A stretch of 64,000 nt of DNA from Yuukianura sp. NJ FZ-2021 (lineage: Eukaryota). How positions within the stretch are numbered: the stretch's first letter is position 1; every line of letters starts with the position of its first letter. Shown here piece by piece: positions 445 to 53,800 of the stretch. The notes beneath the pieces were generated by a model. That model saw only the letters and a program-made list of their open reading frames with translations, was not told the DNA's origin and searched no databases. The stretch covers positions 2,666,001-2,730,000 of the forward strand of contig CM102286.1 in assembly GCA_046563655.1 (NCBI GenBank), written 5' to 3'. A program made the position numbers and the translations under genes.

Positions 445-1172
445 ATGCTCAAGGCCATAATTTTTCTTGCCGTTGTGGCTGTCGCCGCTGCGCAAACTCC
501 GCACAAGCTCGAAATAACCCATGGTGGCGTGGTTGCTACATACGATGCAAACCAGGAAAAGTTGACCCTCACCGACGTCACGGAAATTTGCAATACCGGG
601 GTGTAAGTTTGACACAAAAAATTCAATTTCCCTTTAAACCATTTGTTTTTTGACTAACTGTGAAATTTTATTTGATGAATTTGAAACTTCCCAGTTGGGT
701 AGTGTACACTGGTGAGAACTACGGAGGGTTTTTGGCAGAAATTTTTCCAAAGCTTACACAGCCCTGCCAGCGTCCATACGCTGAAAATGTTGGTTCCGCC
801 AGAATGGTCGGCATCAAAGACGATTCCGCTGCACCATCCGCAACATTGTTCAGTTTAGTGGATTTGGGCGGAGGTTCACTGGTTGTTGGACCCAGTGGAG
901 TTGAAGTAATAAATCAAAGAATCCAGTCAATTGTCACTATCAACACAAATGTGGAGCTGTACGAAGAAGAGAAGTTCGAAGGCCGATTCGAATGCCTTAA
1001 CTTGACTCCACTTTGCAGCGACATGGGAGTGTGCTGGACATGGGCTATCAATCCTGCAGCTTATGCCTGGGACATCACCAATGCCAAATCTGCAAAAATC
1101 GGAACATGCACACCAACAGTCCAAGGTGGCAAGCCGATTGGTAACAGCGTCTCTACCAGCAAAATTTTGTAA
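445..1172 (+). CDS. Secreted beta/gamma-crystallin-like protein, copy 1 (exons 445-602, 695-1172)
   Basis: Signal peptide MLKAIIFLAVVAVAAAQ; GTAAG...CCAG intron splices in frame to GV|WVVYTGENYGG, resembling the crystallin G-x-W-x-x-Y-x-x-x-N-Y-x-G motif; second motif VELYEEEKFEG. Confidence 0.75.
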
Positions 1173-1685: not shown

Positions 1686-2396
1686 ATGCTGAAGTACGCC
1701 ATTTTCGCTTTTGCCATTTTGGCAGTTGCTTCTGCGCAAGCTACTCCGCAAATTAATATCACTGATGCTCGTCTATTATATTTTCACAACGACGATCAGC
1801 CTGCATTGCCTTACAAAGACGTCAGCCAAGTTTGCAAAACTGGAGTGTAAGTTTAAAATTCAAAAATTATTGTTTCAAAAATACTTTGGATTACTACAGG
1901 TTTTGAAATGTTAAAAATTTTCAGATGGATCGTTTACACTGGACAGAACTATGTTGGTGCTACAGTCGAAATTTTTCCAGACGTGAACACGACATGCCAC
2001 ACTCCGTTTGCATCTACGGTTGGTTCAACCAGGCTCGTTGGTCCTAAGGCGACATACACTGAAACGTCCGTAACTTTATACCCTGCACCAAATTTTGGAG
2101 GAGAACCTACAGTGTTTACGACCACAGTTGAGGTCCAACATGCTTTACACTCATTAGTTGCAATCGGAAACTCCCACGTCGAATTGTTCCAAACAACTGA
2201 CCAATCTGGAGTGCCTGGCCTCTGCCTTGAACTGCCAATATGCCAAAATGGCGTCTGTTGGGCCTTTGAGCTCAACCCAGACGATTATGAGTGGAACATC
2301 ACGACCGATACCAAGTCTGCAAAAATCGAATGTACTACTAAAGCTACTGTGTTCAAACCCCGTAACAACCAGCATTCCACTATCCGAGCTTCTTAA
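1686..2396 (+). CDS. Secreted beta/gamma-crystallin-like protein, copy 2 (exons 1686-1846, 1925-2396)
   Basis: Signal peptide MLKYAIFAFAILAVASAQ; same phase-2 intron in CKTGV|WIVYTGQNYVG; clear paralog of copy 1 (VGSxRxVG, GVCW, YxWxIT, KSAKI). Confidence 0.75.
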
Positions 2397-3191
2397 ATTA
2401 ACTCAACCTGAAGAATATTGAGTTTGTTGTCTAAGAATTCGTGAAAATTTGGAAATTATGATGCAAAATTAAAATAAATTGGCTACACGAAATTAAACCA
2501 TGTCGATAGATCTAATGTTTACTAAGGGTAGCCACTTTAGTTATAATGAAACGGATACCACAGCTTTTAGAATAATCTATTTTTTTCGACAAATTAATTG
2601 TAGAACTGTTTTTCAATGGATTTCGTGGTAATAATTGCACTAAAGAGATAAAGTTTTAAAAGAGGTGTAGAAAGGGCAAATAACATAAATATATCCTTAA
2701 CAAAAAATGTGAGCGCACATTTAAATCAACTTCAATAAATTTTTTTCATTTCAGGCAAATTCGATTCAGCGTTTTCATAAATGTCAAATTCCAAATGTTT
2801 TGGCTTTGAATTCGGGATTCGGGAAGTTGCAGAAATTTGAGCTTCGGCATTTACATTGATTTGATTTGATTCGGCATTTACTGCAGAACAATATCCAAAT
2901 TTCACCATCGGTATTCGAATGAAAATCTTTTGCCCAGTTAGTACTACACTTGTTGTCTTGAATTTCTACATCAGCTGTGCTTCCCGGACGCGAAAGTTTG
3001 GCTTGAAATACAGACAAACCTTCACAGTGTGACCGCTTCAAGCTAAAATGTCTGTTAACGTTAAATGTTAAATAAACAAAAATTTTAACATTTATAAACC
3101 TTTACTTGTTTGCGATTTAAAGCCTACCCTAGTTTATTTCTAATTAGAACCAAAACTAACCATTGCGGTTTGGACCATTTCATACCAGAGA

Positions 3192-3804
3192 TGTACTGTC
3201 TTCCGGAAGATTCTTCAAATGAAGCCGTCTTCCGGCTTCATTCTTCCGACTTCCGGAAGTTTTGAAGACGGAAGCCCGGAAGACAAAATATTCTTTGGAA
3301 GCCGGAGGCCGGAAGCTTGGAAGACAAAATATTCTTTGGAAGCCGGAGGCCGGAAGCTTGGAAGACAAAATATTCTTTGGAAGCCGGAGGCCGGAAGCTT
3401 GGAAGACAAAATATTCTTTGGAAGCCGGAGGCCGGAAGCTTGGAAGCCAAAATATTCTCTGGAAGCCGGAAGCCGTGAAGACAAAATATCCTCCGGAAGC
3501 CGGAAGACTACAATACAAAACATCCTCTGGAAGCCTTGGAAGACAAAACATTCTCTGGAAGCCGGAGGTCGGAAGCCGTGAAGACAAGAGAATCTTTGGA
3601 AGCCGGAGGCCGGAAGACTGGAAGACAAGAAATTCTCTGGAAGCCGGAGGTCGGAAGCCGTGAAGACAAAACATTCTCTGGAAGCCGGAAGTCGGAAGCC
3701 GTGAAGACAAAAGAATCTTTGGAAGCCGGAAGTCGGAAGACTGGAAGCCGAATCAGCTGTTTCTCTTCGGAAGCCGTGAAGACTGGAAGCCGGAAGACAG
3801 TACA
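3192..3804. mobile_element. Non-autonomous TIR element with internal ~41-bp tandem repeat array
   Basis: Perfect 15-bp inverted ends TGTACTGTCTTCCGG (3192-3206) / CCGGAAGACAGTACA (3790-3804); roughly 11-12 internal units of GGAAGACAAAATATTCTTTGGAAGCCGGAGGCCGGAAGCTT that degenerate toward the right. Confidence 0.75.
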
Positions 3805-4065
3805 ACTATGTTTCATACACGCATTCAATCCTAGTAGAATTTCGTGATAACAACATTGCATGTTTGCTGTAATAACAACTTTTTGTCAAACGGAAAATTT
3901 GTGGTACCTTCAGATTTAATTTACTTGCAAGTAACAGTTAACACCATTACAAAATTTGTATTTTCATAGGTGACTGTTCAGGATACACGATTAAGTAATC
4001 GAAAATGTAAAATCAATAACAAATTTGATGTAAAATCCGGTGACTCCCGGTAGATCAATGCTCAG

Positions 4066-6113: not shown

Positions 6114-9100
6114 ATGAATAAAGCTTCGGTAAGACGTTAATTTGATTTATATTAAGATTTGATTTGAACAGTTTAAGGTTCTTCAGCGATTTGGACCCAC
6201 ATTTCAAAATTCAGAACAATGGAAGTGTCAAATTTTTGTTTTTTATGGTTCTTTTCAAGATTAAATCTCCGACTAACGGTTATGAAATGGTTCATGTAAA
6301 TCTGGATGAATCAAATAAGGACCCTCCTTTGCTTCGAGCAGCAAATCACGGGGACTTACATGCCTTAAGTCTCTTACTGGAAAAGGGCGAAGATCTGTTG
6401 CAGGTCGATGATGCTGGAAACACTGCTCTGCATCATGTAGCCTACTTGGGTACTTTAAATTCAACTTATTAAAACATATTCTAGTCATTACTAAACTAAT
6501 TACAAATTTTGAAACGAAACAGAAAATTTTGAAACTGCAATCTCCTGTGCCGAAGTTCTTATAGCTCGAGCAAGAAAAAATTCCAATTTGAATTTACTCT
6601 CGACGTTTTTAAATATCGAAGATATTTCAAAATGGACTGCACTGGCAAATGCTACACTCCGAGGAAATACGAAACTAATGGAAATCCTGTTAGAAAATGG
6701 AGCAAAGTTAACTGTAACTAACACGAATGAAACGCTGTTTCACATCATCGCAAAATCTAGTAAGTTTTTGGCACATTTGTAATCTTTTCTTCTTTTTCAT
6801 GACAATTCATTTTAATTTTGCTCATTCTTGTGGTACAGAAAATCAATCAACTGCGTTAGACTGCACGCAACTTTTGCTGAATTTGAAGTATTATGAAAAT
6901 AAGCAAGAAATTTTGAAAACTTATTTGGACACTGAAGATCGCCATACAAGAAGAACAGCTTTGCATTTTGCTGGAATTTTTGGAAACCATGAAGTAATTG
7001 AAGTGCTAATTCGAAGTGGAACTGATGCCACAAAGCATGACTATGTGAATTGTAACATTTTTCATCATGCTGTTGGAAATGGTACTAAACCTTTTGTTTC
7101 AAAAGGTTGTAAACAAAAAATTTCAAAAAGAACTACGCAAAATGCACTTAACAAGAGATAATACCACACTGATCGAATTCAACTTCTTTTGACGTTTTGC
7201 AGCATTCGAAGACAAAGCTGTAGCTTGTACGCAAGTTTTGCTTGCTGAAGATTTGATTCCTGGCTGGTCTAAAGTGATTCCAACGTTATTGGAGTCCATG
7301 GACAATTGTGGAAGGTGTCCAGTCCACATAGGGGCTAGACGTGGGTTCCATGTCATTCTGGACCTTCTATCAGATTACTACATTCTTTCCGAAGCAGGAA
7401 CAGGATGGACTCCGCTACACTGTGCAGCAAGTTTAGGTAATGACTTTTCAATACTTGATTTAAAAAAAATCTAAGCTTTTTTAAGTCATAAGAAAGCAGA
7501 TCTTTAAACAGTCTCGCTTAAGAGAAGTGTTTGGCTCCATGTAAACATTTTTTATGACAAATCCAAAAGCTATAATTTCCATTCTCTGCCCTCCCCTGGA
7601 TCTTGCGTTCTGCTTCGCCTAATGTTTATTATTATTGCTGGAATGTCTGACATAAATGTTTTGGTTCTGTATGACTTTTTGAAAATAATGAATTATTCAG
7701 GAGATGAAGACCAGGCTGAACGGTGTGTCAAACAAATTCTTTCCCACGGGGATGCTGAGCGTAACAAAGGGCTCTGCAATGCCCAAGATGCTCAAGGACG
7801 GACGCCTTTGTATTTATCTGCTAAGGAACGCAATGTCGAGGCATGCAAACACCTCTTACTGGCGGGATCTGGATTTGACATTCCGTAAATTCAAAAATTC
7901 CTGCTGAAAAAGTTGAAAAGCTGAGAATTTTATTCATGGGTCAATGACTTTTGAAATTTTTAGGACAAAGAGAGGCAAAACGCCACTGGAGAAAGTGTAT
8001 CAAAAAATTCCACAAGCCGTTTCAGTACTTTTGAATGAAGCGATCAAGTCATCCGGCTACGTCGCTTATTTCAGGACTATCAACACTGTCGCGGAAATTG
8101 ACTTTGGGTAACATTTCAACTAAACAAAATAATTGTGCAAATTTTGAAAAAGTTGGGGGAAAACATGATTTTTTTTTCAAATTAGGCCTATACTTGGCTA
8201 CAGTACTTCTAAATCCAATGTGTACAAGGAGACAGAAGAATTGGTGAAAGTTTGCAAAGCAAATTTTGCAGATCGGAAAACAGTGCTGTACCACCCGTTT
8301 GTGCAAATTTACATTCACCAGAAATGGGAGAAAGTCAAGTGGTTCTTTCACCTCTTCAGATTTTTTCATGTAACCAAACTAAAAACTTGACAAAAAAAAT
8401 TTGGATTGAAATTTTTACAAAATGCAGAATTTTGGAAATACTAATTTCAGATTTTGTGGTTTTTGCTGAATTGCATTTTTGTCGTCTGGACGTACCGCTA
8501 CATTTGTCCACTTCCAGGCGCCAAAAATTTTTCCTGGAACGGCCTTAGGCCGGAGGAGAAAGACGAGTCAGCAACTCAAAATTTGAACAAAAGTAAAATT
8601 TTGTCTGATTTTATATACATACGTTGATTAAGTTTTAAAGAAATTTGGTAACTTAAATTACTAATCATTGCCTGTTACAGCACTCTCAGAATATGACATT
8701 CCACCAGGACTTCGCGTATGTGGAATTTTGAATCTCGTGACACTATTTGTCTACATTGTTTGTCAACTGCATCAAACAAAACAAAAGTTCCATCAAATCT
8801 TCCGTCCAGCAAAAGTTGATCCGACACAAAATTTCATTGTTCGAAATTTTGTTTTAATGTCGTACAACCTGAGACTTTTTCTTGAAATCCTCCCTTGCGG
8901 TCCGCTTATAATTGGAGCCGGAATTTTCTTCAGTACGTTACCTACACTTGGAGTCTATCCGTTCAATGACTTTTGCCATTACTTCATTGCAGGGGTAAGA
9001 AATTTGCACATTTTAAATTTCTTAGAAATTCAAATCGTTTTTAAAAAAGTGGGATGTATATGTTTTTAGATGGTTGCTCTTGGCGTTTGGGCGGCAATTT

Positions 9101-13300: not shown

Positions 13301-14800
13301 TCGTGATTTATTTTTTCTAAAATAATAAAGTTTTATAAAGTTTTGCTTAGATAACTTTAGCGATCAAAAACATTTTACAGCTCCAGCAGCAGCGGGTGGA
13401 GCTGGTGGTGGTGCTGGAGCTGCTGGTGGTGCTGGAGCTGGTGGTGGTGCTGGAGCTGCTGGCGGTGCTGAGGTTACGGTTGCAGTAACAGAGGCACCCG
13501 CTGCGGCCGGAGGTGATGCTGCTGCTGCTGCTGGAGGTGATGCTGCTGCTGGAGGCGATGCTGCTGCTGAAGGTCGTAGCATGAAAGGAGGACGTTCAGT
13601 AAGTGGACTAGCGGCAAAACCCAGTTCTACTCCTGGGGGAGCTGAAAATGGTACCATGGACCCGGAAAAATTTAATGAACTTGCAGTCAAAATTGCTGAA
13701 GTAATGGCAGCTAAAATGGGAGAGAAATTCGGAAAAGGTAATTTGTGAATTTCAGCGCCTTTCAGCGCTGTATTTAAAAAAACTGAATCAATTTTTCCAG
13801 AAATTTTGAAAACTGGCCTTGTGGAGCACCCCGGTTGGAAGACGATGGATGAAGGTGGAGCCCCGGGCAATACTTTATCGCATGAAGACGACGCTTTTGT
13901 AGGTTTTGGTGGTTGCGAGTATCAGAAAATCGGTGAAAGTGATTTCAACAAAGCCGACAATGCCAATGACATGATAAAAGTGCTCGCAACAGTCCTGAGG
14001 ACGCAGTGTATCAAAAAAGAACTCAAACAGTACCAACAACTCCTGGACGACAAACTGCTCGTTTTCAACGCGAAGGAAAAGACATTCGATGTACCACAAG
14101 ACAACAAGTACTTGTAAGTAACACACTCAAGTGACATAAAGCAAACCGCCAAATTCAAAAGTTATTCAAAAATGTGTTTTGCATTTTTTTAGACACATGG
14201 AGAAACTGACGCCGCGCAAACGCAGTGAATTGGCACGAGGTAAAAGCTTTAACTTTAGTTTCAATAATTTTTTCTCAAATTTGTTAGGCCTTGATACAAA
14301 CCGTGAAGCAGAAAACTGTTGCTAATTTTTGAAATACCAAGAGATTCTTTTTTAATTTTTTAGCATTCGAGATGGCTTTGTTCAGCAAAGCGTTCAAGGC
14401 CGAGCTTTTGAGCGGCGCGGGACACAGTGCACCGAAGGACTCTCCAGTTTCTAGACGCGTGCACACTCTGGGTGAAGTGATCATCTCTGGCCTTGAGCAA
14501 GTTGGAAAAGAGTTCAAATGTCACCAGGTCAAAATCCTTCGAAGCATGCTTACCACAGTAAAAGCCGCTTTTACAAAACTGTTGCAAGACTACGAAGCTA
14601 CCCGGGATTGCGAGGAGTGTACCGAAGAACTCCGAATTAACAAAAACGACCAGATTTACTTGATGACCCTCATGGAATTTATTATGCATGGCCTTGCACC
14701 GGTCCAGAAAAAGTCCGAACCGATCCGAGACGCTCTCGCGACTTTCAATTCGACAAATGTCAAAGTCATCAATAACCGAGTAGAGAACTATTTATTGTAA
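10370..14800 (+). CDS. Large orphan secreted protein (~850 aa) with Gly/Met-rich micro-exon region, Gly/Ala low-complexity linker and helical C-terminal region
   Basis: Signal peptide MDSLSPKFLLFFCLVPLTLC; exons 10370-10791, 10872-11234, about 11 small exons between 11325 and 13117, then ~13381-13737, ~13802-14113, ~14193-14239, ~14363-14800 with compatible phases and canonical splice sites. No family recognised. Confidence 0.7.
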
Positions 14801-16368: not shown

Positions 16369-17080
16369 TCAAGGTTCAAGGGCCGTAACGCGTCTGCGCA
16401 GTTTCTTGACCTCGGTAGCAGTTTTTTCCAAAGTCCAGAAACTGTTTTTCTGGCACACGACGACTCTGTGCATGTTGCAACTTGTCTCGTACCACTTGGC
16501 GTCACTCCAGAGCGACAATGGAGATCGAGCTTCCATGCAGCGATCAGATTCGTATTTGCTCGGTTGCCCTGGAGCCCAGTTATTATAACCTCCTGCGACA
16601 ATGTCAACTGGGTCACCATTGACCCAGTAATAGGCAGGCTTTGAAATTTCGTCGTAGTATCTACCACCCAACCAAAAACTATCAGATATACTTCCTGTGC
16701 TATTATACACATTCTGAAAGATGAAATTTTCGTATTCTTCGTCTTGTATAATCGGTAGCGATGGGTCGAAGTCGGCAGTTGCTTGAAGAATACAATGTGC
16801 TTCTGCATCACTGAATGTTAGAAGTCCCGCATCCTGAAAGACCTGGACACAGTATTCGTCCTTGAACGTTAGCCATGGAGCTTCACAGTATGCAGCCTGA
16901 GCCTCTGATTAAATAAAAAAATAAAATAAGAGTTATTAGTATTGTGGAATGTTAGTTCTTAAAAAATGTTTAGGAAAATTTATTTTTGAAAACATGTAAG
17001 CTGCTGCAAAAAATCTAACCTCCTGGTTGCAGCGATGCAGCAACCAGAACAGCCAGGAGGAGAAAGCTTTTCGACAACAT
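16369..17080 (-). CDS. Secreted C-type lectin domain protein (2 exons)
   Basis: Signal peptide MLSKSFLLLAVLVAAS; CEAPW...YC, AEAHC, FWLGG, YNNWAPGQPS, C, KWYETSC...VVCQK are C-type lectin domain motifs. Confidence 0.9.
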
Positions 17081-19634: not shown

Positions 19635-21663
19635 TCAGTCTTGATCATCATCATCTGTAGTAATGTCAGTTTCATCATCAACGTAAACTTCGGCGTATCC
19701 CGAAAGGAGACTTTCCAAATCTTGAATGGTTTCAGGCATTGGTTTCTTCAGGGTTTCTGGAAGCCAGAGATTTAGAAAACCAGAAGTAAAGCTAAGTGCA
19801 CCGAGAATGAGGAACTGTCCAGAGGGTGTATATGAATTCTGGGAAAACAAAGTTTGTTAGCATTCGAAATCCAAAATTCCAATCATTCGATTTTTTTTTT
19901 GTGATTTACGGCAAATGATGTCAAAGGTGAGATGATTCCACCGATTCGAGCAAAGCAACTGCATAATCCAAGGCCACTGTTTCTGATTACTGTTGGGAAC
20001 AGTTCTGCAGAATGAATGTAAATTATTGAAAAACTGGCGGCAATTGCCAATTTTCCAAATAATGGGAGAAATAGGGTTGTGCTCCATTTGACAGCAAGGC
20101 ATGCAATTCCACCAAGCATCATAAATGCAGCTAAAGGTCTTCGTCTTCCGCTCCTAAAAACGAAAGCACATCGATATTTATCGGTTAAAATTGCGGTAAA
20201 AGCATAGGATTCAAAAAATGACGATTGATCAACTGACCACTCAATCAGCAGAGTAGCAATGACGTAGGCTGGCAGTTCGACAGCCCCGCTCAGAGCTTCG
20301 CTCATGTAAATATTGGATCCCAAGTCTCCAGCAGCGAGGGTGAGGCCATAGTAAACGACACTGTTTACAAACCTATGACACAACACACCAATTTAAAAAA
20401 AACGTTTAGGAGGCTTAATTTTCATTACTCACCAAGAAAACAGCTGAATGAGTGTGACGAAGCATATTTTTGGACTCCTGAAGACATGCTTCAATTCAAT
20501 GTTGTGTCCATGTACATTATTATTGTCTTTACTATCAAGAGCTCCGGCCGGAAGCCGTGTCTTATTTCTGATAGCAATCCGAGTCAATATTTTTCTGGCC
20601 TCCTCTGACTTTCCGTGGGTGATGAGCCATCGCGGTGACTCAGGAATCCATCTAATATGAAAAAATACAAAATGTCGAAAACAAGCAAATACAGCCAAAA
20701 TAGAGAAACTTACAATATCGATGGAAGGAAAATAAGACCGAGACATCCCGAAATTAGACTAAGATTTCTCCAGCTCGAGACAAAATAGCCGAGGATGCTG
20801 TAAGCAATAATTCCAACGGCGAAGAAAGCCTACAAAAGTACATTCTGATTAATTTTTTTTTCATAATTTTAGTAAGTATGAACTTACCTGGAAAATATTA
20901 CCGCACACTCCTCTTTTGCTTGGACCAACCAGTTCACTGGAGAGTACGAAACAGGAAAGCATGTTTCCTGCTGTGAAGAAACCATTGAAACACCTTCATA
21001 AAGAACAACAAAAAAGAGTATAACACTTAAATCGATGGATTTAATTTCGTATTGTGACGTACCTTGCCACGGCATACAGATAATAAGTGGACATAAACGA
21101 AGACGTAACTCCAGAAACCACTAGCCCAATGGTTGTCGCCAAAAGCGTGTATTTTCGCCCAAATGAATCCGCTATGGGGCCAAACACAAGTGCTCCAACC
21201 ATCACACCCGCAAAGAAAATACTTTGCAGAAAGTTCGTTTTGTACTTCTGATCGCACACAAGTCCCCACTTGAACAAACAGAACAAAAACAAACCAATCA
21301 GAACCTATACTTCACCAACTTCAAATAAACATCACTAACCTCTCGAGCAAATGTGTCCGGAATAACATTGTAGGTGATAGTTTCACATTGCGACAGGTTA
21401 TTCATTGGACATGAGTCCTTCAACTCGGTTCCATTGAAGCCCAAGCATTTGAACGATGGTGCCTGGCCTGTGAAAATTCGATATTTACGTGATGAGTAAA
21501 AAATTCACCATAAAAAACACCATTAGACTGAGTTTTCACCTGTGAAGACAATCTGAATCATGTTGAACGGTGGGTACAAATTGAAGATGGACAACGAAAG
21601 AAAGTAAATCCTTTGGAGTGGTCCAAATTCCCCAATCTGTGTATAAATTTCGTCGAGATCCAT
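19635..21663 (-). CDS. SLC22 organic cation/zwitterion transporter (MFS), SLC22A15-like; multi-exon
   Basis: [87 protein letters not shown] are SLC22 hallmark motifs. Confidence 0.92.
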
Positions 21664-22799: not shown

Positions 22800-24908
22800 A
22801 TGGTTGCCCCAGATTTGTTTGGAGAAGTGTCGGTCAATGGCTTCCGCGGAAGCGCCAAATTCCGAATTTGGCAGCGATCGTCCACAATTTCGCCCCGAGT
22901 GGCTCAAGGACTGCCTACATTCATGCATAGGGATGGACGTGGAAACAATCGTCTTGCTGTTAACGTGGATTTGGTCTTGGGATCCAACTTGTTTAAAAAA
23001 ACATGGCGGCTCTATGTCTATGAGAATGACCAATCCTCAGAAGGATATTACGGAAGTAAGTTTTCAAAAATTTTGGATTCCAATGCATTTTTTCGTCTAA
23101 ACGAGATTGAAATTTCAATTTTCAAAAAATTTCGTAGGCGATTCTGGTTCTGAACATGATTCTGAAGTCGTTTTTGGAGCTGACTTCCGGAACTTCTTCA
23201 AAACATATCTGAAACGAAAAGAATCGATCATTTGCTCTCCAAGATTTGGCGAAATCCAATGCGCTTCGGAACCAGAGTGGAAGTTTGATTTAGGTAATTC
23301 TCAATTTTCAAAATTTTGAATTTTATATGTCTGAAATTTTGAAATTCTGTCTATCTTTGAGCAGACGAAAGGGTGATTTTATTGGTGGACATGGACTGCT
23401 TTGCTGTCCAAGTCTATGGTGACCCCGATGATGTTGGACAACCAAGAGCTGTTTTCAACGGACCAGTGTAAGTACTTTCAAAATTTAAGTCATTTTAAAT
23501 CCGAATGGGTGTTTCTAATCTCGTTTTTTTTTTTACATCAAATTTTATGCTTTTCGGAAAACTCGAATGTAACTTCTAATTTGTCACTTTTTCTAGAATT
23601 GAATCTGTCAGCTACGAAGCGAAGCAAGCCGGGGTCAAACGGCGCATGACACGAGAACAGGCTCGGCGGGCATGTCCCAATCTAATTGAAATTGAAAATC
23701 CAAAGAGAAGAAATGGCCGTCCAGACAAAATCCCTGGAATGACTGCGACAGCAAATATCAAAAAGTCCATTTTGAAAATTCTGAATCAATATGGAGACTT
23801 GTCCACTTTTGAATTTGCCTCAAAAGACGAATTCTACATCGACTTGACTGAAGTCATCAACAAGCAGGAATACCGTGGAACTAGAAGTAACCTTCGCGGT
23901 ATGATTCCAGGCGGGAATGACTTTTGGTCATCCGTGTACATATACGGAAGTCGCACGGTTGGACATTCCAGGAAACCGACGTACTTGTTTCATCGACTTC
24001 CCTATCTTCGTAGAAAGTCCGGAGCGTATACGGAATTTGAACGTCAAGAGATTCGACTTCTTTATGGCACTTGGATTGGCAGTCAAATTGTGAACAACAT
24101 TCTAGAGGATACTGGCTATCAAGCGTCAATTGGAGTCGGGTCAAACAAGGTCACGGCCAAAATTGCCTCAGATACGCACAAGCCTGGATCAATCACTGTT
24201 TTCCCGCCAGCAAGTTACGATTCAGTTGCGGAATTCATTGACTTTCAAAAAGTACCAGGATTTTCAGCTAACTTGGGTGACACTGTTCGAAATGAATTTG
24301 GAACCGAAACGATTCAAGATCTTCAGTACATAAAAGTTCATCGACTGGTGAATTTGAATTTGCGCGGGAGTAATGGCAATAGAGAATATCTAGAAGGCGT
24401 ACTCCAAGGAGCTCATTTCATATGTGACGAAGAGGTCGAGCCAATTGATGGATTCAAAACAGCATCTAGCAACAGAAATTTCAAATACGGTCAGCAGTAT
24501 ATCAATATTTTAAAAATTCAAGTTTTGTCTTAAATCGAATTCGCATTTTGAAAATGTTTTTAATTTTCAGGTGAAGTATCTCAGCAATACGTTTTTGAAG
24601 AAATGCTGCGGGAACAGTACGAGGAAATGCTGGAACGCCTTCGGTTTGAACACAGAGTTAATGGACGTCTTCCATACTCAATCAAGTTGGCGGTAAAACT
24701 GAATCGGCACAATGGCGGAACTTCAACAAAATCGTTCAAAATTTCTGGATCTCCAATATCTGCTGGGCTCTTGACAATGAGATTTTTGAAAAATGCTTTC
24801 ATAGGCGAAAACAATCGGGCAAAATATCGCGATTCGATTCTTCCTTGGGATGAAAACATATTCTCAGGAGTGAGTAATATCGGCCTAGTTGCAAATTTTG
24901 CACAATAG
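22800..24908 (+). CDS. Divergent Y-family DNA polymerase eta-like protein A with N-terminal extension (exons 22800-23055, 23138-23293, 23365-23467, 23597-24489, 24571-24908)
   Basis: ERVILLVDMDCFAVQV, SYEAK..GVKRRM..ARRACP, SKDEFYIDLT, TGYQASIGVGSNKVTAKIAS..HKP align with Pol eta motifs I-V; all introns GT-AG and in frame. Confidence 0.88.
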
Positions 24909-25933
24909 AAAATTCCTATTAGGAATCAAGACTGATTTAAACAAAATAGCATAACTAATCGGCAGCTTAGGTTAGTTAATACAGAATATATAAAATTAGA
25001 ATATATAAAATTAGTTTTTTGTTGTTAACTAATCTTAAGCAGTAGTTACACTCTCAGCAGTGAAATTATTTATGATCAATGTTACGTTATTAGTTTAACT
25101 TAACATATTTATATATTACGATCATATTAATTTAAAACACAAAATATACAACTTATTTTGGTACATTGATGTAAAAGAAACTTTTACATATTAAAGTTCA
25201 ACAATACACTCACTCAGATCTTCTCGGAGAAAATTCCATAAAACTTTAATTTTTAGTTGAATTAAAACTTAGTTTCGAAAACTCAGAAATCGTATAAAGT
25301 AAATGCTGCTTCTGTGAACCCAAAATCTAATTTCTTGAAAGTGTATTTAAGTTTTCCATGCATTTAAGGCTTCAGTTCGTTTATAATTTTCTCTTTCATT
25401 TGATTCTTTACCAGAAACATTACTGGACTAGCAGTGGAGAAGTAACGAAAGATTTGAAGATCTTATCATTCAATAGTGTTTCGTGTTTTGTAAGAAAAAA
25501 TGTAAAATTCTTCAACAAGTTTTACTACTACAACGCTACTTTATGAAGGAATGGGCAAAAAGCCATAAAATTTGCTACGCCTCTGCCTTATGACCTCGAT
25601 GAACAAGATTATTCCCCCCTCAAATGCGTATGTTTTAGTAGGTTACGCATGTTATACTGTGTATATTGTAGCTAAGAAACTAAAAACTTCACAGAGTGTG
25701 TTTCCCCAAGGTTATTAGTCGCAAAACGTTTTTGGTTTACACACATTATACACGTCAGAGCTTTTGAGCTCCAGTCAACCACAACATCTTTTATAAATGT
25801 TAAAGCTGTTCTATCTCTGATTCTAGCATGGGACTTTCACACAACAAGCTCCAGTCTTTAGTTTGACTACAGTCTTGGTAGTGCCTGCGAATTAATAAGT
25901 TAAAATCCCTGATTTTTTTTAGAAAGTTGTAAT

Positions 25934-28075
25934 ATGGCTACTGAAGATCTTTTTGGAGAAGTAATTGTTAATGGGTTTCGTGGAAGTGCGAATTTTCAAA
26001 TGTCTCAACGATTTTCCACGATCTCTTCACGCTTAGCTCAAGGAATGGAAAGGTTCATGTATCATAATGGAAGAATTAGTGCTCCGGCTGTTAGTGTCCC
26101 TTTGATTTTAGGTTCCAATTTATATAAAATCAATTGGACAATATACATCTGCGACGGCGAGCGCGATGATTACAGTAAGTTTTGATTCATGTTTCTAACA
26201 ATTTAGGGCCAATTATTTCAGTTTTACCGTAAAACTTCTGATTACAGCCGCGGGCGCTTATTAAAGATTGGCGTTTATTAGAAATTTTACGGTAAATGCA
26301 ATTACCTAATTCAATAATTTTGTTTTGTTTCAGACACTTCTGAAGTTGTTTTTGGAAATGACTTCCGCAGATATTTTCAGTCAAACTTTGCGGAACCGTT
26401 TCCTACCATTGCGGCCCCCGCATTTGGTGAAATTCATTGTCAGTGCACTTTTGAAACAAAATGGAACTTTGCCTTAGGTATTTAGTAATTAATACAAGTT
26501 AATGTAAAAGTAATTAAAGTTTAAGCATTTGAGTTTTGAACATGTGTCTAAAAGTTGAAATTTTGAACAGATGACAGGGTAATTTTACTAGTGGATATGG
26601 ACTGCTTTGCTGTGCAAGTATACGGGAGTCCAGATGATGCTGGAAAACCGAGGGCGGTATTCAGTGGACCAGTGTAAGTAGCATATCAAAAAAAATTCTG
26701 AATTTCAATTTTGCCGTTTTCATAAAATTTTAACCGGTTGATGGGGGATACCGTCTTTTTTAGAATCGAGTCGCTTAGTTACGAAGCGAAGAATAGAGGG
26801 GTCGACCGATGTATGACAGAGGAGCAAGCGTTAAGGGAATGCCCAGAACTTATTATAATCGAAAATCCTGAAAGAAAAAACGGATGTCCAGATAGAATTC
26901 CAGGAATGATGGCGACCGCGAAAATCAAAAAAGCCATATTGGAAGTTGTACACCGATACCGCGGTACGGCCATTTTCGAATTTTCGTCGAAAGACGAATT
27001 TTACATTGATGTGACGCAAGCCGTTGACGACCAGGAAAATGGCACAGGAGATGACCTTCATCTCATGATTCCAGACGGGAACCATTTTTGGCCATCGGTC
27101 TACTTGTACGGAAGTGGCACCACGGGCAAATCAATGCAACCGACATATTTGTTCCGACGGCTACAATTTCTTCTCAGGAAACGTTCTTTGTACTATTCGG
27201 AGTTTGAGCGACAAGAAGTTCGGCTGCTGTACGGAACTTGGATTGCAAGTCGAATTGTGGAAAATATTTTAAAGAGAACTGGATACCAAGCCTCGATTGG
27301 AGTTGGATCAAATAAGGTCACGGCCAAAATTGCTACCGGAGTACACAAGCCGGGGTCCATCACTGTTTTCCCGCCTTCCAGTTACGATCAAGTTTCAAAA
27401 TTTATTAAGTTTGAAAATATGCCTGGATTTTCAGCCAATTTGGGTGACAATGTTCGTGAAAACTTTGGAATCACGACCATTGAAGACCTCCAGCGCGTTA
27501 CAGTTGGAAGAATTTTGAATTTAAACTTGCGCGGAAACAACGGAAATCCAAACTATATAAAGAAAGTGCTCAACGGATGTCACTTTATATGTGACGATGT
27601 GGTGAAGCCGATCAACGGTCCTAAAACAACAACCTGCACACGAAGATTTCGTTGGGGTAAGCGTCAATTCAATAATAAATCTAAAATTTCGACGTGTGTT
27701 ACTATAAACGACCAAAGTTTTTAAATATTTTTTCAAGGTGAAGTATCTCAGTACCACGAACTTGAGAAAATGCTGGACGAGCAGTACGAGGAAATGCTGG
27801 AACGACTCTGGTTTGAACTGCGAAATAATAAACGTCGTCCGTTTTCAATCAAACTTGAAGTAGACTTTAGTGAACGAAAAGGCGGAAGTTTAACCAAATC
27901 ACTCAAAGTCACTGGATCTCCACTGCCTCGTCAAATACTAAACGTGGCTGCTTTAAAAAATGCTTTCATAGCAATAAACAATAAACTAAACATCAGCGAT
28001 TCAGTTCTTCGCTGGAATAGAGGTGCTTACGGTGGTGTTAACAGTATCACCATAACTTCAAATTTCCAAAAATAA
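25934..28075 (+). CDS. Divergent Y-family DNA polymerase eta-like protein B, tandem paralog (exons 25934-26174, 26334-26477, 26571-26673, 26764-27656, 27738-28075)
   Basis: Same five-exon structure as A; DRVILLVDMDCFAVQV, SYEAK..GVDRCM, SKDEFYIDVT, TGYQASIGVGSNKVTAKIATGVHKP. Confidence 0.88.
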
Positions 28076-28376: not shown

Positions 28377-29568
28377 TTAAACATTTCTTTCTTCATGTCC
28401 ATCAGTGTGGTCAGTTCCTGCGCAAGTTCCACAGTAAATGACATTGCATCCATCACAACCATCTCCACCACCACCCCCACCTTCACAACTCCCTCCACCA
28501 ATTATCATCAGTATGAACAGCACAATCATAAACACTACTGTGACGATCAAGAAGATAGACAGAGCAGCAGCAACATAATTTTCTGGACGAAATTGACAGC
28601 ATTCTCCGGACATAATCGCTTGCGTGTAAATGGCAAGGCAGGTCGATAGTCCTAAACTTGCTAAAGCACAAATGACCACGACTTCCGCTTCTTCCGGTGG
28701 AAATGCATAGTAGAGCAGAAGCGATATCAGCGCCACTGTGGTCAACACTATCAGCAAGTGGCCGTACCATTTGAGATCAAATTTGGACTGGACGCTTGAG
28801 TACAGGAGTACCACGGCGCATGGGCAGAGTAAAATTCCAAAGGCGTAGACGACATGGTTCTGCCTATTGATAAAAACACATCTTAAGACAGTGCTCTGAG
28901 ATTTCAAAAATTACTTTTTGTGTAAAGGTCAAAGGTCATTGAACTTACTCTGACAAAGTAGCCAGAACTGCCACGCCAAATCCAAATGTTAGAGTGAACA
29001 ATCCCAGAAGAATTAAATTGGCGGGAAATATTTTCATAAGTGGTTTGTTGCAGAACAGAATGAGAAAAATTACAAACGAAAATACAAAAGCAACCGCCAA
29101 AAATACAGACCAGCCTTCTTGAATAACGCATCTTATCGAAGTGATGAAATTTGTTAGCACGATGAGAATTAGAGTTGTGAGTACTTGAGCCGTAAATATT
29201 CCGTAAATTTTTCTGCAACAAAAGATTTACCAAATTAAATTTCCAGTATTTAAAATTATTCGAAAATTTTTGATTCCTCCGGATTCCTCCAAAATGTAGA
29301 AATCCAAAAAAGTTAAAAGAGAAATTTCAAAATTTTGTCAACTCAATCTCTTCTTAACGCGTTAAATTTTTGCAAAACACGCTTACCTAAGGAATCCAAG
29401 GCGAATTGAGGCGTCACTAAAATTTGGTTGTGCAGGTAGTGATAAATGTGCTTGGACACTTGTTGCACTTTGACCTCTGTTGTAAATTGCACTGAAATCG
29501 TCATTTTCATCTGGCAGGATTGAAGTTTTAAAAGTGCTGTTTGTATTGCCGTTCATTTTGGAGCTCAT
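28377..29568 (-). CDS. Lifeguard / Bax inhibitor-1 (TMBIM) family membrane protein, divergent (exons 29568-29387, 29212-28949, 28863-28377)
   Basis: FSDASIRLGFLR|KIYGIFTAQV, FPANLILLGLFTL, QSKFD, PENYVAAALSIF and multiple hydrophobic helices match Lifeguard proteins. Confidence 0.85.
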
Positions 29569-50800: not shown

Positions 50801-53800
50801 CCGAATTCTAGATAAACAGGAAAAGCGTGCTTTTCATAAAAAAAAAACCTCGCGAAAACCGCGCGTTTATCATCGCTTTACAAAAAAAGGGCTTTATGGT
50901 GCCAAAAATGAAAAACGAAGCAAAACAAAATGTGATGAAGTAAAAAAAAAGTTAAAAAATATCTGGAAATATTAATGAAGTTGGCCAAGGGGTGGGCAAG
51001 TGAAACCACAAAAAGCTCGATCATAGCCAAGCCTAAGTCTACACACAAAAAAAGACTAAACTTACGCCCATCGTGACCAAAAATATTGAAAACTTTGAAA
51101 AATATTTATGGTTTTGCAAAATAAAATTGATTATTTTAAAGATTTACTTCTTTTTTTTAGAAACTACAGTATCCTTTGAAAATAAATTTTACTTCACTCA
51201 AGCGCTGGATTTTAATAGGTTATTCTAAACCGAATTTTAACTCATTTTTTTTGTATTTTCTTACCTGAGAGATAAAAGAGATAAATTTAAAATAAAATTA
51301 GGTCAATAAAAGTAAGTAGAAAAATTTTCTTTGTCGTTTGCTAAGTTTTTTGAAACTGCTGAATAGAAATTGGAAGGTTAATGGAGCATTGAAGCCGTTA
51401 AGAAAAAAAGAAAGATCAACTGTACTTTTACTCCGTGTCCCACAAGACCACTTTCCTCCGCCTTAAAAAAGTTTAATCTCCATTTTTTAACCGCAGGGAA
51501 CAAAAGCATTAATAGACTCGCTGATAAAAGAAAGCACAAAAAAGCTTTCCGTAAGGATTTCTTGTTCAACGTTTACAAAACGGCTTTCGTTTTCGTTCAT
51601 CCGGAAAAGTTCAAATTTTTAATGGAGTGAACAGAAAGCAGGAAAAGTATTTGCAGTTATTTTCGTTTCAGTTCTCTAGAGAAATCTGGCTAAAGTTTAA
51701 CCCAAATTGAAAAGCAAAACTGCGAGAGAAGAGTTTTTGGGTCAGCTTAAAAACTTTAACTTAATTTGACGTTTGGCGGGGTCATCTTCATCACAAACTA
51801 AACTTTTTGAATTCCCGAGACACTCATTTCCTTTCCGCCCTTGTCGATTAAGTTTCCTCGCTTTCTCAATTTTTAATCTCAACAGTTCCGCTGAGAATTC
51901 AAATTACTTTCTTCAACGCCGTTTTCACTACAGTCAAAAACTGTGCGGGAGAAAGTAGATTTGCGAACGAACCTTAACGCCTATTTCCTTACCGGTTCAA
52001 TTTATATTCCTAAAGGAAAACTAACACAGTAATCACATCAAACTTTCACAAAAAATTTGCTCCGCAAAATTTAGCAGTAATCTTCAACAGGGGCGACTGC
52101 ACGACCTGCCCCAAGGTTCGTATAGCAGCAAAATAGTTTTTTTTTAACAGGTTAAGCAATAAGCCTTGTTTTCAAAAAATCTCGCCCCCCAAACAATTTT
52201 TCCTAAAATTTTCCACTAATACATTTGATAGAACGGCATGGTGAACCAAGTTTTGCTAATTTTTTTTAAATAAAATTTCAAATGTTCGAGTTATTGCCTA
52301 ACCTGTTGAAGAAAAGACTATTTTCTTGTTTACAAACCTTGACCTGCCATAACTTTGTTAACTAAAAAGAGCAGCTAACTTACCAACAAACCAAGGATTT
52401 CTGGTGTTTGTTTTGACATTGAGATTGAAAAAGTACTGGTCAAACCCAACGACTTTGTTGGCTCTAGGTTGGACACTCAAAGTCCCCTCCACTGCCTCTT
52501 CGTTTCCATTGGACACGAGTGTCCGGGAGCTCCATCCGTCGGATCCGATCCAAGTGAAATGACCTGTAGCATTTTGACGTCGCACTGCAGCCATTAGTTC
52601 TTTGACTTCTTGATCGGATCCAAAGATAATCACGCCTGAAAGGAAAAAAGAGACCGGAAATTGATCGCACAAAAGTCCTGCTATTTCTTTTCAAAATCAC
52701 TTTGTCTCTGTCGCAGGAGAAAGAAAGGACGCGTGTCATTACCTCTGCTTTCACCATCAAACTTCTCTCGTCCAATCTAATGACAACCCTAATGAACCTT
52801 CTTTTCATTTTTGAAAACCTTTGTTCCCGCTTCAAATCAAATTTGTTTCAAAAACTTTCACGTCCTCTAGAAACCGAAACTTGTCTTAAACCAACGAAAC
52901 AAACGAGAAATGCCAAAAGCAAGAAATGTTCATTTTCAGATGTTTCACATTTCCGAAGAAGCGTTTCCGCACATCTTCAAATCACTTCTGACAACGTTTA
53001 GAAATGAAAAAATAATTAGCACTTTCCAGTATTTTGAACCATCATTTTGGAAAACTACACTGACTTTTCTTCTGCATCAACTTACAAGGGAACCCCATAA
53101 GGAAAAATTTTGATGGTAATTTCAACTACCAACGCCAAAAAGATATTCCGGGTTGAGATTGGTGGTAGTGAAAAACTCGCACCGTGGTAGTGAAAAACGA
53201 ACTTTTCTCCAGAAATCCGCAACGTAAAACATATTTAGGAGATGATTTCTTTTTGCAGTTATGGAACACGACTGCAATTTTGAAATCAAAATTTTGACGA
53301 AAGGTCAATGGGTTTCTCTAGTTAGTATTCTCGTTAAAGTTATGCTATGCTGAACTGTTTATATGAAAAGTGACAAAATATGAGCTGCTAGCAGCATATA
53401 CCTTTGTCGTCAACGACTGGATTAATGGAGCAAATTTATTATTTTTGGCGGACAAATTTATAACTTTATTATGAGTGATTTGAAAAAGTAATTTTCGCAG
53501 GAAATTGTAAAAGTTGTGGAAAAAGAAGTTTGCGTTTGTTAAAAGTCTTTTCTTGTAAGATAAAAAGTTATCCATCTTTTAGGCTAAAAAGCCAATAATT
53601 GATTTAGAGTGCTTACTTAAGTCACTTTAACGTGCATCTTTAAACATGAAGTTGTGGTAACTTTCTTTTCATTTTCATGTCCAAAAATAAACTGATGAAG
53701 ATTAGAAAAGCTTTTAAAAAAGTTATACTGTCATTTCCAGACGCAAGTTTTCTCAAGAATTTTTTTCTTAAAAACTATCTACAACGCAAGTCACTTTTAA

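What the first reader, a model, noticed from the sequence alone, without database searches (positions are those of the whole stretch)
23365..26673. Two Pol eta-like polymerases with a natural steric-gate Ala: candidate ribonucleotide-incorporating Y-family enzymes
Seen: a small exon missed by the ORF track encodes ERVILLVDMDCFAVQVY in gene A (GAC ATG GAC TGC TTT GCT, 23388-23405) and DRVILLVDMDCFAVQVY in gene B (26594-26611). Known: human Pol eta reads DRVVALVDMDCFFVQVE, where the second Phe (F18) is the steric gate excluding rNTPs; engineered F18A (Pol eta) and Y39A (Pol iota) relax sugar discrimination, and mycobacterial DinB2 is a natural gate-less Y polymerase that uses rNTPs. The catalytic Asp of motif I, the DE of motif III (SKDEF), SYEAK, the R61-equivalent and NKxxAK..KP are all retained, so they do not look like dead enzymes. 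The Ala is shared by both paralogs while nearby synonymous sites differ. Inference: an animal Y-family subfamily that may synthesise RNA or mixed RNA/DNA, or act as a nucleotidyltransferase rather than a standard TLS polymerase.
Basis: partly seen in the sequence, partly recalled or inferred. Interest (0 to 1): 0.92.

Follow-up and report, generated by a model that had tools for sequence, protein, structure and literature searches.

The report
Pol eta-like polymerases without aromatic gate
Two neighbouring animal genes encode DNA-repair polymerases related to polymerase eta in which the bulky residue that normally keeps RNA building blocks out is an alanine, a trait of a whole undescribed branch of this enzyme family known so far from springtails and a soil mite.

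Summary
Two tandem five-exon genes (A 22800-24908, B 25934-28075, + strand) encode 581- and 572-residue Y-family polymerases. A 103-base exon carries DMDCFAVQVY, and its Ala aligns with Phe18, the steric gate of human Pol eta. The genes are 60% identical, dS is saturated, and dN/dS is 0.22 overall and 0.035 in the motif-I exon, so both have long been under purifying selection.

New here:
- The Ala is one state of a clade-wide trait. A well-supported clade, separate from canonical Pol eta, never shows an aromatic gate (Glu, Gln, Ala or Ser). Its named members come from springtails and an oribatid mite.
- The near-universal Glu four residues after the gate is an aromatic residue or His in 11 of 12 clade rows (Tyr here).
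- The window proteins have Ser where Pol eta has Ala49, the "polar filter" position.
- They end at the little finger, with no PCNA- or ubiquitin-binding tail found.
- They carry a conserved ~137-residue N-terminal extension that is probably a dead retropepsin-like domain.

Relaxed sugar selectivity is plausible but untested. Compensation by Tyr and Ser, or loss of activity, remain live rivals. Expression and the presence of a canonical POLH could not be checked.

The parts
22800..23055 (+). Gene A exon 1: start codon and first part of the N-terminal extension
   Evidence: ATG at 22800, donor GTAAGT, phase 1. 53% identical to gene B exon 1 and 43% to L001 exon 1. No Pfam match.
23138..23293 (+). 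Gene A exon 2: second part of the N-terminal extension (EVVFGADF...FGEI)
   Evidence: AG/GT borders and phase fit. Conserved in gene B and L001, with 14 invariant columns.
23365..23467 (+). Gene A exon 3: motif I, DMDCFAVQVY. Asp146 and Asp148 are the metal ligands, Ala151 (23403-23405) sits at the steric-gate position, and Tyr155 (23415-23417) sits at gate+4.
23597..24489 (+). Gene A exon 4: fingers, palm and thumb. Key residues: Ser175 (polar-filter position), Tyr178, Lys181, Arg187, Asp249-Glu250, Lys360, Lys367.
   Evidence: Pfam IMS PF00817 E 4.3e-21. Human Pol eta is the best PDB match, E 5.4e-13. Residue map.
24571..24908 (+). Gene A exon 5: little finger, then the stop codon. No C-terminal tail.
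   Evidence: Weak IMS_C match, E 0.22. Aligns to the little finger of canonical Pol eta up to its last strand. No PIP or UBZ pattern.
25934..26174 (+). Gene B exon 1 (N-terminal extension)
26334..26477 (+). Gene B exon 2 (N-terminal extension)
26571..26673 (+). Gene B exon 3: motif I, DMDCFAVQVY. Ala142 at 26609-26611, Tyr146 at 26621-26623.
26764..27656 (+). Gene B exon 4: polymerase core. Key residues: Ser166, Tyr169, Lys172, Arg178, Asp240-Glu241, Lys351, Lys358.
   Evidence: Pfam IMS E 3.5e-19. Residue map.
27738..28075 (+). Gene B exon 5: little finger and stop codon
   Evidence: IMS_C E 0.04, below the cut-off. Alignment.

Best explanation
**What is shown**
- The window holds two old tandem duplicates of a gene for a Pol eta-derived Y-family polymerase.
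- They belong to a fast-evolving clade whose named members come from springtails and one oribatid mite.
- This clade has rebuilt the sugar pocket. The aromatic steric gate is gone, replaced by Glu in most members, Gln in the nearest relative and Ala in both window genes. The otherwise near-universal Glu one helical turn later is an aromatic residue (Tyr here).
- The two-metal catalytic centre and the triphosphate-binding residues are kept and are under purifying selection.

**What I infer**
- These proteins most likely still catalyse templated nucleotide addition.
- With Ala under the sugar, the window enzymes most likely discriminate poorly against ribonucleotides, as the engineered F18A enzyme does.
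- They would therefore act as repair or gap-filling polymerases that can use rNTPs when dNTPs are scarce.
- They lack the PCNA- and ubiquitin-binding tail of Pol eta. They are presumably recruited or dimerised through their N-terminal domain, which is probably a retropepsin-like fold without its catalytic Asp.
For: **Gene models.** Both genes have GT..AG borders and matching intron phases, and translate to 581 and 572 residues without internal stops. L001 shows the same plan.

**Selection.** A and B are identical at 340 of 569 aligned residues. dN/dS is 0.22 overall, 0.035 in the motif-I exon and 0.15 in the N-terminal region. dS is 1.37, which is saturated.

**Family.** Pfam IMS E 4e-21. Human Pol eta is the best solved relative.

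**Gate position.** Ala aligns to Phe18.

**Residues kept.** D13, D15, Y52, R61, D115, E116, K224 and K231 are kept; R55 is Lys. In the 21-sequence clade alignment the DE, NK..AK and KP columns are invariant.

**Clade.**
- A 29-row clade has support 98 in FastTree (153 rows).
- A 26-row clade has SH-aLRT 97 in IQ-TREE with LG+C20 (56 rows).
- All 12 clade rows with a visible motif I have E, Q, A or S at the gate.
- The motif-I regex hit 214 rows outside the clade. After I dropped 7 hits as spurious by eye, 0 of ~207 have a non-aromatic gate.

**Literature (passages read).**
- F18A raises the rNTP/dNTP efficiency ratio of human Pol eta from 0.0004-0.003 to 0.3-0.74 and keeps lesion bypass (PMC13716900).
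- M. smegmatis DinB2 uses rNTPs by virtue of a Leu gate (abstract of PMC4176160).

**No regulatory tail.** No PIP or UBZ pattern; the protein ends at the last little-finger strand.
Against: **No functional data.** No biochemical or expression data could be obtained.

**Lost Glu.** The gate+4 Glu (human E22, yeast E39) is Tyr in both genes. E39 is reported essential for yeast Pol eta activity. I saw this only as Kondratick 2001 is cited in PMC5264235; the original paper was not held. The E39-to-+4 mapping follows from the numbering offsets.

**Possible compensation by Tyr.** In the model of the Folsomia clade member, the gate (residue 22) and +4 (residue 26) lie in one helix, 21-27, with pLDDT about 95. 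The Tyr could therefore fill the space under the sugar and restore discrimination.

**Possible compensation by Ser.** Ser occupies the polar-filter position in both window genes. A polar residue there tightens sugar selection in Pol IV and MsDpo4 (PMC6846668).

**F18A is harmful in cells.** F18A cells are hypersensitive to UV, so a pure gate loss is not obviously beneficial.

**Caveats on other lines.** The little finger scores below Pfam's cut-off. dS is saturated, so the dN/dS values are rough.
Confidence: 0.45

Rival explanations
1. These are active DNA polymerases with ordinary or near-ordinary sugar selectivity. The clade moved the gate function rather than losing it. The aromatic residue at gate+4 (Tyr155 in A, Tyr146 in B), helped by Ser at the polar-filter position and by the backbone, blocks the 2'-OH. 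The residue at the old gate position is then free to vary (E, Q, A, S).
For: - The gate residue varies within the clade, while +4 is aromatic or His in 11 of 12 rows.
- Both positions lie in one helix, four residues apart, in the model of P0053.
- Ser occupies the polar-filter position in both window genes and in 9 further clade rows of 17 scored, against Ala in 16 of 16 canonical rows.
- The polar filter acts together with the steric filter (PMC6846668).
- Family A polymerases use Glu as their gate, with a nearby Phe (review PMC13492167).
Against: - No coordinates could be examined, so it is unknown whether a +4 side chain can reach the sugar.
- In Pol IV, F13A raised rNTP use even with the polar filter present. 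I infer this from the comparison with the double mutant; the magnitude for the single mutant was not seen.
- The swap arose once at the base of the clade. It is one evolutionary event, not repeated covariation.
Confidence: 0.3
2. These are polymerase-fold proteins that no longer polymerise. Loss of the motif-I Glu (and of the gate) abolishes catalysis, and the proteins serve as DNA-binding or scaffolding factors, with the conserved acidic residues kept for metal or DNA binding.
For: - E39 is reported essential in yeast Pol eta (as cited in PMC5264235).
- Neither Glu nor an aromatic residue is left at the gate in the window proteins.
- R55 is Lys.
- Some clade members have lost catalytic residues: P0013 has Asn for the first Asp, and Oppia domain 1 has DG for DE.
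Against: - D13, D15, D115, E116, Y52, K224 and K231 are all kept in A and B after a duplication old enough to saturate dS.
- The motif-I exon has the lowest dN/dS, 0.035.
- The DE, NK..AK and KP columns are invariant in 21 of 21 clade sequences aligned.
Confidence: 0.15
3. These are decaying or unexpressed duplicates, and the Ala is a neutral lesion.
For: No RNA evidence could be obtained. The donor of gene A intron 4 is GTCAGC, a weak site.
Against: - Both genes have full open frames with conserved splice phases.
- dN/dS is 0.22 with saturated dS.
- A third locus from an independent source has the same exon plan and an open frame.
Confidence: 0.05

Closest known systems
DNA polymerase eta (POLH / Rad30A), human and yeast
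   Same: It is the best solved relative by sequence. For a clade member it is also the best by fold: the top 50 Foldseek hits are all human Pol eta. Motif I matches in 13 of 17 residues. The catalytic Asp/Asp/Asp-Glu, Y52, R61, K224 and K231 are kept.
   Different: - Ala replaces gate Phe18.
- Tyr replaces Glu22.
- Ser replaces Ala49.
- Lys replaces Arg55.
- No UBZ or PIP tail was found.
- There is an extra ~137-residue N-terminal domain.
- It sits in a separate clade in both trees.
Engineered steric-gate mutants: Pol eta F18A (human) and F35A (yeast)
   Same: The same residue change at the same position.
   Different: These are laboratory point mutants in an otherwise canonical pocket. The window proteins also differ at +4 and at position 49, so the mutant kinetics may not transfer.
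Mycobacterium smegmatis DinB2 / MsDpo4
   Same: A natural Y-family polymerase with a non-aromatic gate (Leu) that uses rNTPs.
   Different: It is bacterial and belongs to the DinB branch. It lacks the polar filter (Cys47), whereas the window proteins have Ser there. There is no relationship beyond the family.
Proteins annotated 'DNA polymerase eta' in Folsomia candida (XP_035715905.1, OXA37822.1), Orchesella cincta (ODM91094.1, ODM87662.1), Orchesella dallaii (CAL8100778.1), and Oppia nitens XP_054159717.1
   Same: Same clade, with a non-aromatic gate and an aromatic or His at +4.
   Different: They are 36-39% identical or less to the window genes. Most have Glu at the gate. None of those seen has the N-terminal extension. 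They carry automatic names only; no paper on them was found.
Family A polymerases (Klenow Glu710 with Phe762)
   Same: A Glu gate working with a nearby aromatic residue, as in most members of this clade.
   Different: An unrelated fold family. The window genes have Ala, not Glu.

Membership tests
Y-family DNA polymerase (Pfam IMS, PF00817) | IMS domain above Pfam's gathering score | tested here: met
   75.8 and 69.6 bits against a cut-off of 23.2 for exon 4 of A and B.
Y-family DNA polymerase (Pfam IMS, PF00817) | Metal-binding carboxylates: two Asp in motif I and Asp-Glu in motif III | tested here: met
   DMD and SKDEF are present in both genes and align to human D13, D15, D115 and E116.
Y-family DNA polymerase (Pfam IMS, PF00817) | Aromatic (Phe/Tyr) steric gate after motif I | tested here: not met
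   Ala in both genes. Outside the clade, 0 of ~207 family members examined lack an aromatic residue there; this is after dropping 7 of 214 regex hits as spurious by eye.
Y-family DNA polymerase (Pfam IMS, PF00817) | Glu four residues after the gate (human E22, yeast E39) | tested here: not met
   Tyr in both genes. Glu in 199 of ~207 other rows.
Y-family DNA polymerase (Pfam IMS, PF00817) | Little finger (IMS_C / PAD) domain | tested here: inconclusive
   IMS_C E 0.22 and 0.04, below the cut-off. Exon 5 nevertheless aligns to the canonical little finger through its last strand.
Pol eta orthologue group (POLH/Rad30A) | Groups with canonical Pol eta in a tree | tested here: not met
   A separate clade with support 97-98, placed outside the group that holds animal and plant Pol eta. 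Long branches make the exact origin unsure.
Pol eta orthologue group (POLH/Rad30A) | C-terminal UBZ zinc finger and PIP/RIR motifs | tested here: not met
   No pattern was found, and the protein ends at the little finger. The motif patterns were written from recall.
Pol eta orthologue group (POLH/Rad30A) | Arg61 equivalent in the fingers | tested here: met
   Arg187 in A and Arg178 in B.
Natural rNTP-using Y-family polymerases (DinB2 type) | Non-aromatic residue at the gate | tested here: met
   Ala.
Natural rNTP-using Y-family polymerases (DinB2 type) | Efficient rNTP incorporation | not testable with these tools
   Needs enzyme assays.
Natural rNTP-using Y-family polymerases (DinB2 type) | Belongs to the DinB branch | tested here: not met
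   The best relatives are Pol eta. Pol IV chains match only the palm and thumb, at E 1e-8 or weaker.
Retropepsin-like aspartic protease fold (N-terminal extension) | Match to a Pfam model of the clan (RVP, RVP_2, Asp_protease_2, gag-asp_proteas) | tested here: not met
   No match at E up to 10 for any of the six exon peptides. The domain is split by an intron, so only pieces could be scanned.
Retropepsin-like aspartic protease fold (N-terminal extension) | Catalytic Asp-Thr/Ser-Gly | tested here: not met
   By my reading of the alignment, the position holds Arg (A, L001) or Gln (B). L001 keeps Thr-Gly. The motif is recalled, not taken from a call.
Retropepsin-like aspartic protease fold (N-terminal extension) | Likeness of fold or learned features | tested here: inconclusive
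   The L001 exon-1 peptide scores 0.90-0.92 to aspartyl-protease clusters. The window's own exon 1 gives only WGR at 0.78. The AF2 model has pLDDT 51 and no Foldseek match.

The most novel reading that the evidence does not exclude
Soil micro-arthropods carry a family of Pol eta-derived enzymes that natively insert ribonucleotides, giving RNA or mixed patches during repair. This would be a eukaryotic Y-family counterpart of mycobacterial DinB2, useful when dNTP pools are low, as in non-dividing or desiccated tissue. In the window's subclade the enzyme is fused to a catalytically dead retropepsin-like domain that replaces the PCNA/ubiquitin tail as the recruiting or dimerising module.
Probability: 0.3. 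Interest if true: 0.8.

Novelty: new variant of a known kind. Interest (0 to 1): 0.6.

Why it matters
The aromatic steric gate is treated as a constant of Y-family polymerases. The only natural exceptions I found described are bacterial: the DinB2/MsDpo4 enzymes of M. smegmatis.

An animal clade that has dropped the aromatic gate and also moved the conserved motif-I Glu would be a natural experiment on how sugar selection is built. It comes with ready-made variants (Glu, Gln, Ala, Ser at the gate) to compare.

If the enzymes do use rNTPs, this would show a second route, besides Pol mu in family X, by which animal repair synthesis can draw on the ribonucleotide pool. The apparent fusion to a dead retropepsin-like domain, if confirmed, is an architecture I have not seen described; I ran no search for it.

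If the enzymes discriminate normally, they show that the gate function can be relocated within the pocket.

Tried and rejected
**Expression and genome**
- No RNA holder was listed for window:22700-28200.
- No whole genome is held for this window, so the search for a canonical POLH could not be run.
- No earlier notes exist on this genome or sequence. A word search returned only family A phage cases.

**Protein database searches**
- With exon 4, 'longer' found nothing and 'near' found two distant proteins.
- The profile of 21 clade members returned mostly canonical Pol eta and bacterial Pol IV, and only 3 clade rows. It added little to the clade's known range.
- The metagenome scan gave 1 locus from 67 pattern matches.

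**N-terminal domain**
- Pfam found nothing, and the PDB profile search found nothing.
- AF2 on the exon-1 peptides gave pLDDT 51, and Foldseek gave nothing at E 0.001 or better.
- I set aside the WGR lead (Atlas score 0.78) as chance level.

**A PIP- or RIR-like motif in exon 2**
- RNFFKTYL occurs in gene A only and is not kept in B. Rejected.

**Origin of the window**
- I considered a nematode origin, from the TTTTCAG-type acceptors and an acceptor-like site just upstream of gene B's ATG.
- The named canonical nematode Pol eta rows sit in the canonical clade, and the window genes nest among springtail paralogues. The source animal remains undetermined.

**Papers not held**
- PMC6261451 and PMC86801.

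**Could not be done**
- The spliced proteins could not be passed to the fold, family or complex tools. The window's own motif I was therefore never modelled in three dimensions.


Full report
**1. The observation**

- Gene A, 23365-23467, translates to D-ERVILLVDMDCFAVQVYGDPDDVGQPRAVFNGPV.
- Gene B, 26571-26673, translates to DDRVILLVDMDCFAVQVYGSPDDAGKPRAVFSGPV.

Both exons are bounded by AG and GTAAGT.

A phmmer search of the 35-residue exon against all PDB chains finds only human Pol eta. It aligns without gaps to residues 6-22 of chain 4o3s_A (DRVVALVDMDCFFVQVE), which puts the Ala on Phe18. Two papers whose passages I read name Phe18 as the steric gate:
- PMC2817480.
- PMC13716900, which also gives kinetics. 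F18A raises the rNTP/dNTP efficiency ratio from 0.0004-0.003 to 0.3-0.74 while keeping bypass of a thymine dimer. F18A cells are hypersensitive to UV.

**2. The genes**

I built gene models by comparing the two paralogues.

| Gene | Exons | Protein |
|---|---|---|
| A | 22800-23055, 23138-23293, 23365-23467, 23597-24489, 24571-24908 | 581 aa |
| B | 25934-26174, 26334-26477, 26571-26673, 26764-27656, 27738-28075 | 572 aa |

- All introns are 71-159 bases and GT..AG, with the same phases in both genes. One donor in gene A is a weak GTCAGC.
- The proteins are identical at 340 of 569 aligned positions.
- Nei-Gojobori estimates are in the table below. dS is saturated, so these ratios are rough. 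They still exclude neutral decay and recent gene conversion.

| Region | dN/dS |
|---|---|
| Whole protein (dN 0.30, dS 1.37) | 0.22 |
| N-terminal region | 0.15 |
| Motif-I exon | 0.035 |
| Core | 0.19 |
| Little finger | 0.52 |

- Only these two copies lie in the window.
- The neighbours are ordinary animal genes: C-type lectin, MFS transporter, Bax1-I, ANF-receptor and ankyrin.

**3. Family**

Exon 4 matches Pfam IMS, with E 4e-21 for A and 4e-19 for B. Its best solved relatives are human Pol eta chains at E 5e-13. Pol iota, Dbh, Dpo4, Pol IV and Rev1 match only the palm and thumb.

From the printed alignments and a MAFFT alignment with canonical sequences:
- The window proteins keep D13, D15, Y52, R61, D115, E116, K224 and K231.
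- R55 is Lys.
- Exon 5 aligns to the little finger as far as its last strand, and the stop codon follows directly. Pfam IMS_C is only a weak match there (E 0.04-0.22).
- No PIP, UBZ or similar pattern is present (the patterns were written from recall).

**4. A clade, not a one-off**

A full HMMER scan of 1.84 billion representatives gave 1351 hits at E 0.001 or better, but only 4 at 1e-30 or better.

Two trees define the clade:
- FastTree on 153 rows: a 29-row clade with support 98.
- IQ-TREE (LG+C20 PMSF, quick search) on 56 rows that I chose from the above: a 26-row clade with SH-aLRT 97. It is separate from the group holding canonical Pol eta of nematodes, flatworms, rotifers, mites, insects and plants.
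- For the second tree I left out P0020, P0108 and P0119 (fragmentary, long-branched clade rows), P0153 (a long-branched row outside the clade), and most canonical rows.

Named members of the clade are springtail proteins and one oribatid-mite protein:
- Folsomia candida: three clusters.
- Orchesella cincta: two.
- Orchesella dallaii: one.
- Oppia nitens: one.
- All carry automatic names only. The rest are unnamed Logan, JGI or ENA records.

Folsomia and Orchesella each appear in at least two subclades, so the family had already expanded within springtails. The window genes sit in a 7-row subclade (support 99) with Folsomia OXA37822.1. The source animal is probably a springtail or another soil micro-arthropod, but this is inference.

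**5. The pocket is rebuilt**

Twelve clade rows show motif I. Their gate and gate+4 residues are listed below.

| Row | Gate | Gate+4 |
|---|---|---|
| Window A | Ala | Tyr |
| Window B | Ala | Tyr |
| L001 | Gln | Tyr |
| P0009 | Glu | His |
| P0013 | Glu | Tyr |
| P0053 | Glu | Tyr |
| P0044 | Glu | Trp |
| P0025 | Glu | His |
| P0033 | Glu | His |
| P0123 | Glu | Trp |
| Oppia domain 1 | Ala | Phe |
| Oppia domain 2 | Ser | Gln |

Outside the clade the motif-I regex hit 214 rows, and I judged 7 of those hits spurious by eye. Of the remaining ~207:
- All have Phe or Tyr at the gate.
- 199 have Glu at +4.

That Glu is human E22 and yeast E39. The numbering offsets agree on this. E39 is reported essential for yeast Pol eta, but I saw this only as cited in PMC5264235; the original paper was not held.

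The clade has therefore swapped an aromatic-then-Glu arrangement for a Glu-then-aromatic one. The window genes have gone a step further, to Ala-then-Tyr. This swap is a single event at the base of the clade, so it is not statistical covariation.

An AlphaFold model of Folsomia P0053 (pLDDT 76 overall, above 90 in the core) bears on the geometry:
- It places the gate (residue 22) and +4 (residue 26) in one helix, 21-27. The two side chains therefore lie one turn apart on the same face.
- Its 50 best PDB matches are all human Pol eta, with E about 1e-23.

A further difference concerns the "polar filter" position:
- Pol IV has Thr43 there, and human Pol eta lacks the filter (Ala49) (PMC6846668).
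- The window proteins have Ser, as do 9 further clade rows of the 17 scored. All 16 canonical rows have Ala.

**6. An N-terminal domain**

Exon 3 has no possible start codon upstream of the first catalytic Asp. Exons 1-2 fit in phase in both genes and are conserved (dN/dS 0.15).

The one related metagenome locus found (L001) has the same five-exon plan, the same phases and a homologous N-terminal region. The extension is therefore part of the protein.

The tests gave mixed results:
- Pfam, a PDB profile search, an AF2 model of the exon-1 piece (pLDDT 51) and Foldseek gave nothing.
- The Atlas gave only a chance-level WGR lead for the window's exon 1 (0.78).
- For the L001 exon-1 peptide the Atlas returned retropepsin-like aspartyl-protease clusters at 0.90-0.92.

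Because that family had been named beforehand, I give the reading about 0.7. The position of the catalytic Asp holds Arg (A, L001) or Gln (B), so any protease activity is unlikely. Dimerisation or peptide binding is the natural guess.

**7. What it most likely does**

The catalytic centre is kept under strong constraint, so polymerase activity is the best guess. With Ala under the sugar, poor discrimination against rNTPs is the simplest prediction. It is supported by the F18A data and by the bacterial precedent of DinB2 (abstract of PMC4176160).

Against this stand three facts:
- The motif-I Glu is lost.
- The +4 Tyr may have taken over the gate.
- The window proteins have gained a Ser at the polar-filter position.

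| Reading | Probability |
|---|---|
| rNTP-tolerant polymerase | 0.45 |
| Relocated gate with normal selectivity | 0.30 |
| Non-catalytic protein | 0.15 |
| Dead genes | 0.05 |

**8. Novelty**

- Full-text searches for 'polymerase eta' with 'Collembola' found no paper.
- 'springtail' with 'translesion' found no paper.
- 'Y-family', 'steric gate', 'paralog', 'arthropod' returned nothing relevant.
- The Folsomia genome paper and the Oppia preprint do not contain the word 'polymerase'.
- Supplements of these papers were not examined and might list the genes.

The finding is a new variant of a known enzyme family. That pattern is the clade-wide loss of the aromatic gate, the Glu/aromatic swap, the Ser at position 49, the missing tail and the extra domain.

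Noticed in passing
P0012 (Oppia nitens XP_054159717.1, 919 aa): A single predicted protein holds two complete polymerase cores in tandem. Motif I has Ala at the gate in the first core and Ser in the second. The first core also has DG in place of the catalytic DE and NT in place of NK. This could be a real double enzyme or a merged gene model.
   Followed up: partly
P0013 (unnamed JGI record, 425 aa): This clade member, apparently intron-free and complete, has Asn-Ala-Asp in place of Asp-Met-Asp in motif I and Cys at the R61 position. It is a possible non-catalytic offshoot.
   Followed up: no
P0157 (Folsomia candida OXA37822.1): After the little finger, the last ~100 residues of this partial protein do not align with any polymerase. 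This may be a fused gene model.
   Followed up: no
window 25905-25933: A T-rich tract ending in AG lies 12 bases upstream of gene B's ATG, and a TCTTTTCAG lies about 90 bases upstream of gene A's ATG. They look like splice acceptors, so there may be 5' untranslated exons or trans-splicing. No RNA data were available.
   Followed up: no
window 3144-3885, both strands: Long overlapping open frames on both strands are made of a repeated unit of about 20 residues. This is probably a tandem repeat rather than a gene.
   Followed up: no
window 654-1172 and 1857-2396 (+): Two similar open frames of 172 and 179 residues lie about 1.2 kb apart, with no Pfam match. They look like another tandem pair of unknown proteins.
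   Followed up: no
window 13329-13921: A Gly/Ala-rich low-complexity frame lies opposite a Pro/Ala-rich frame on the other strand, in a region of strong GC skew (0.197).
   Followed up: no
window 16369-16908 (-), 19883-20392 (-), 28377-29226 (-), 52358-52690 (-), 6718-7888 (+): Neighbouring exons encode a C-type lectin, an MFS transporter, a Bax1-I/TMBIM protein, an ANF-receptor domain and ankyrin repeats. No mobile-element genes were seen among the 13 frames scanned.
   Followed up: partly
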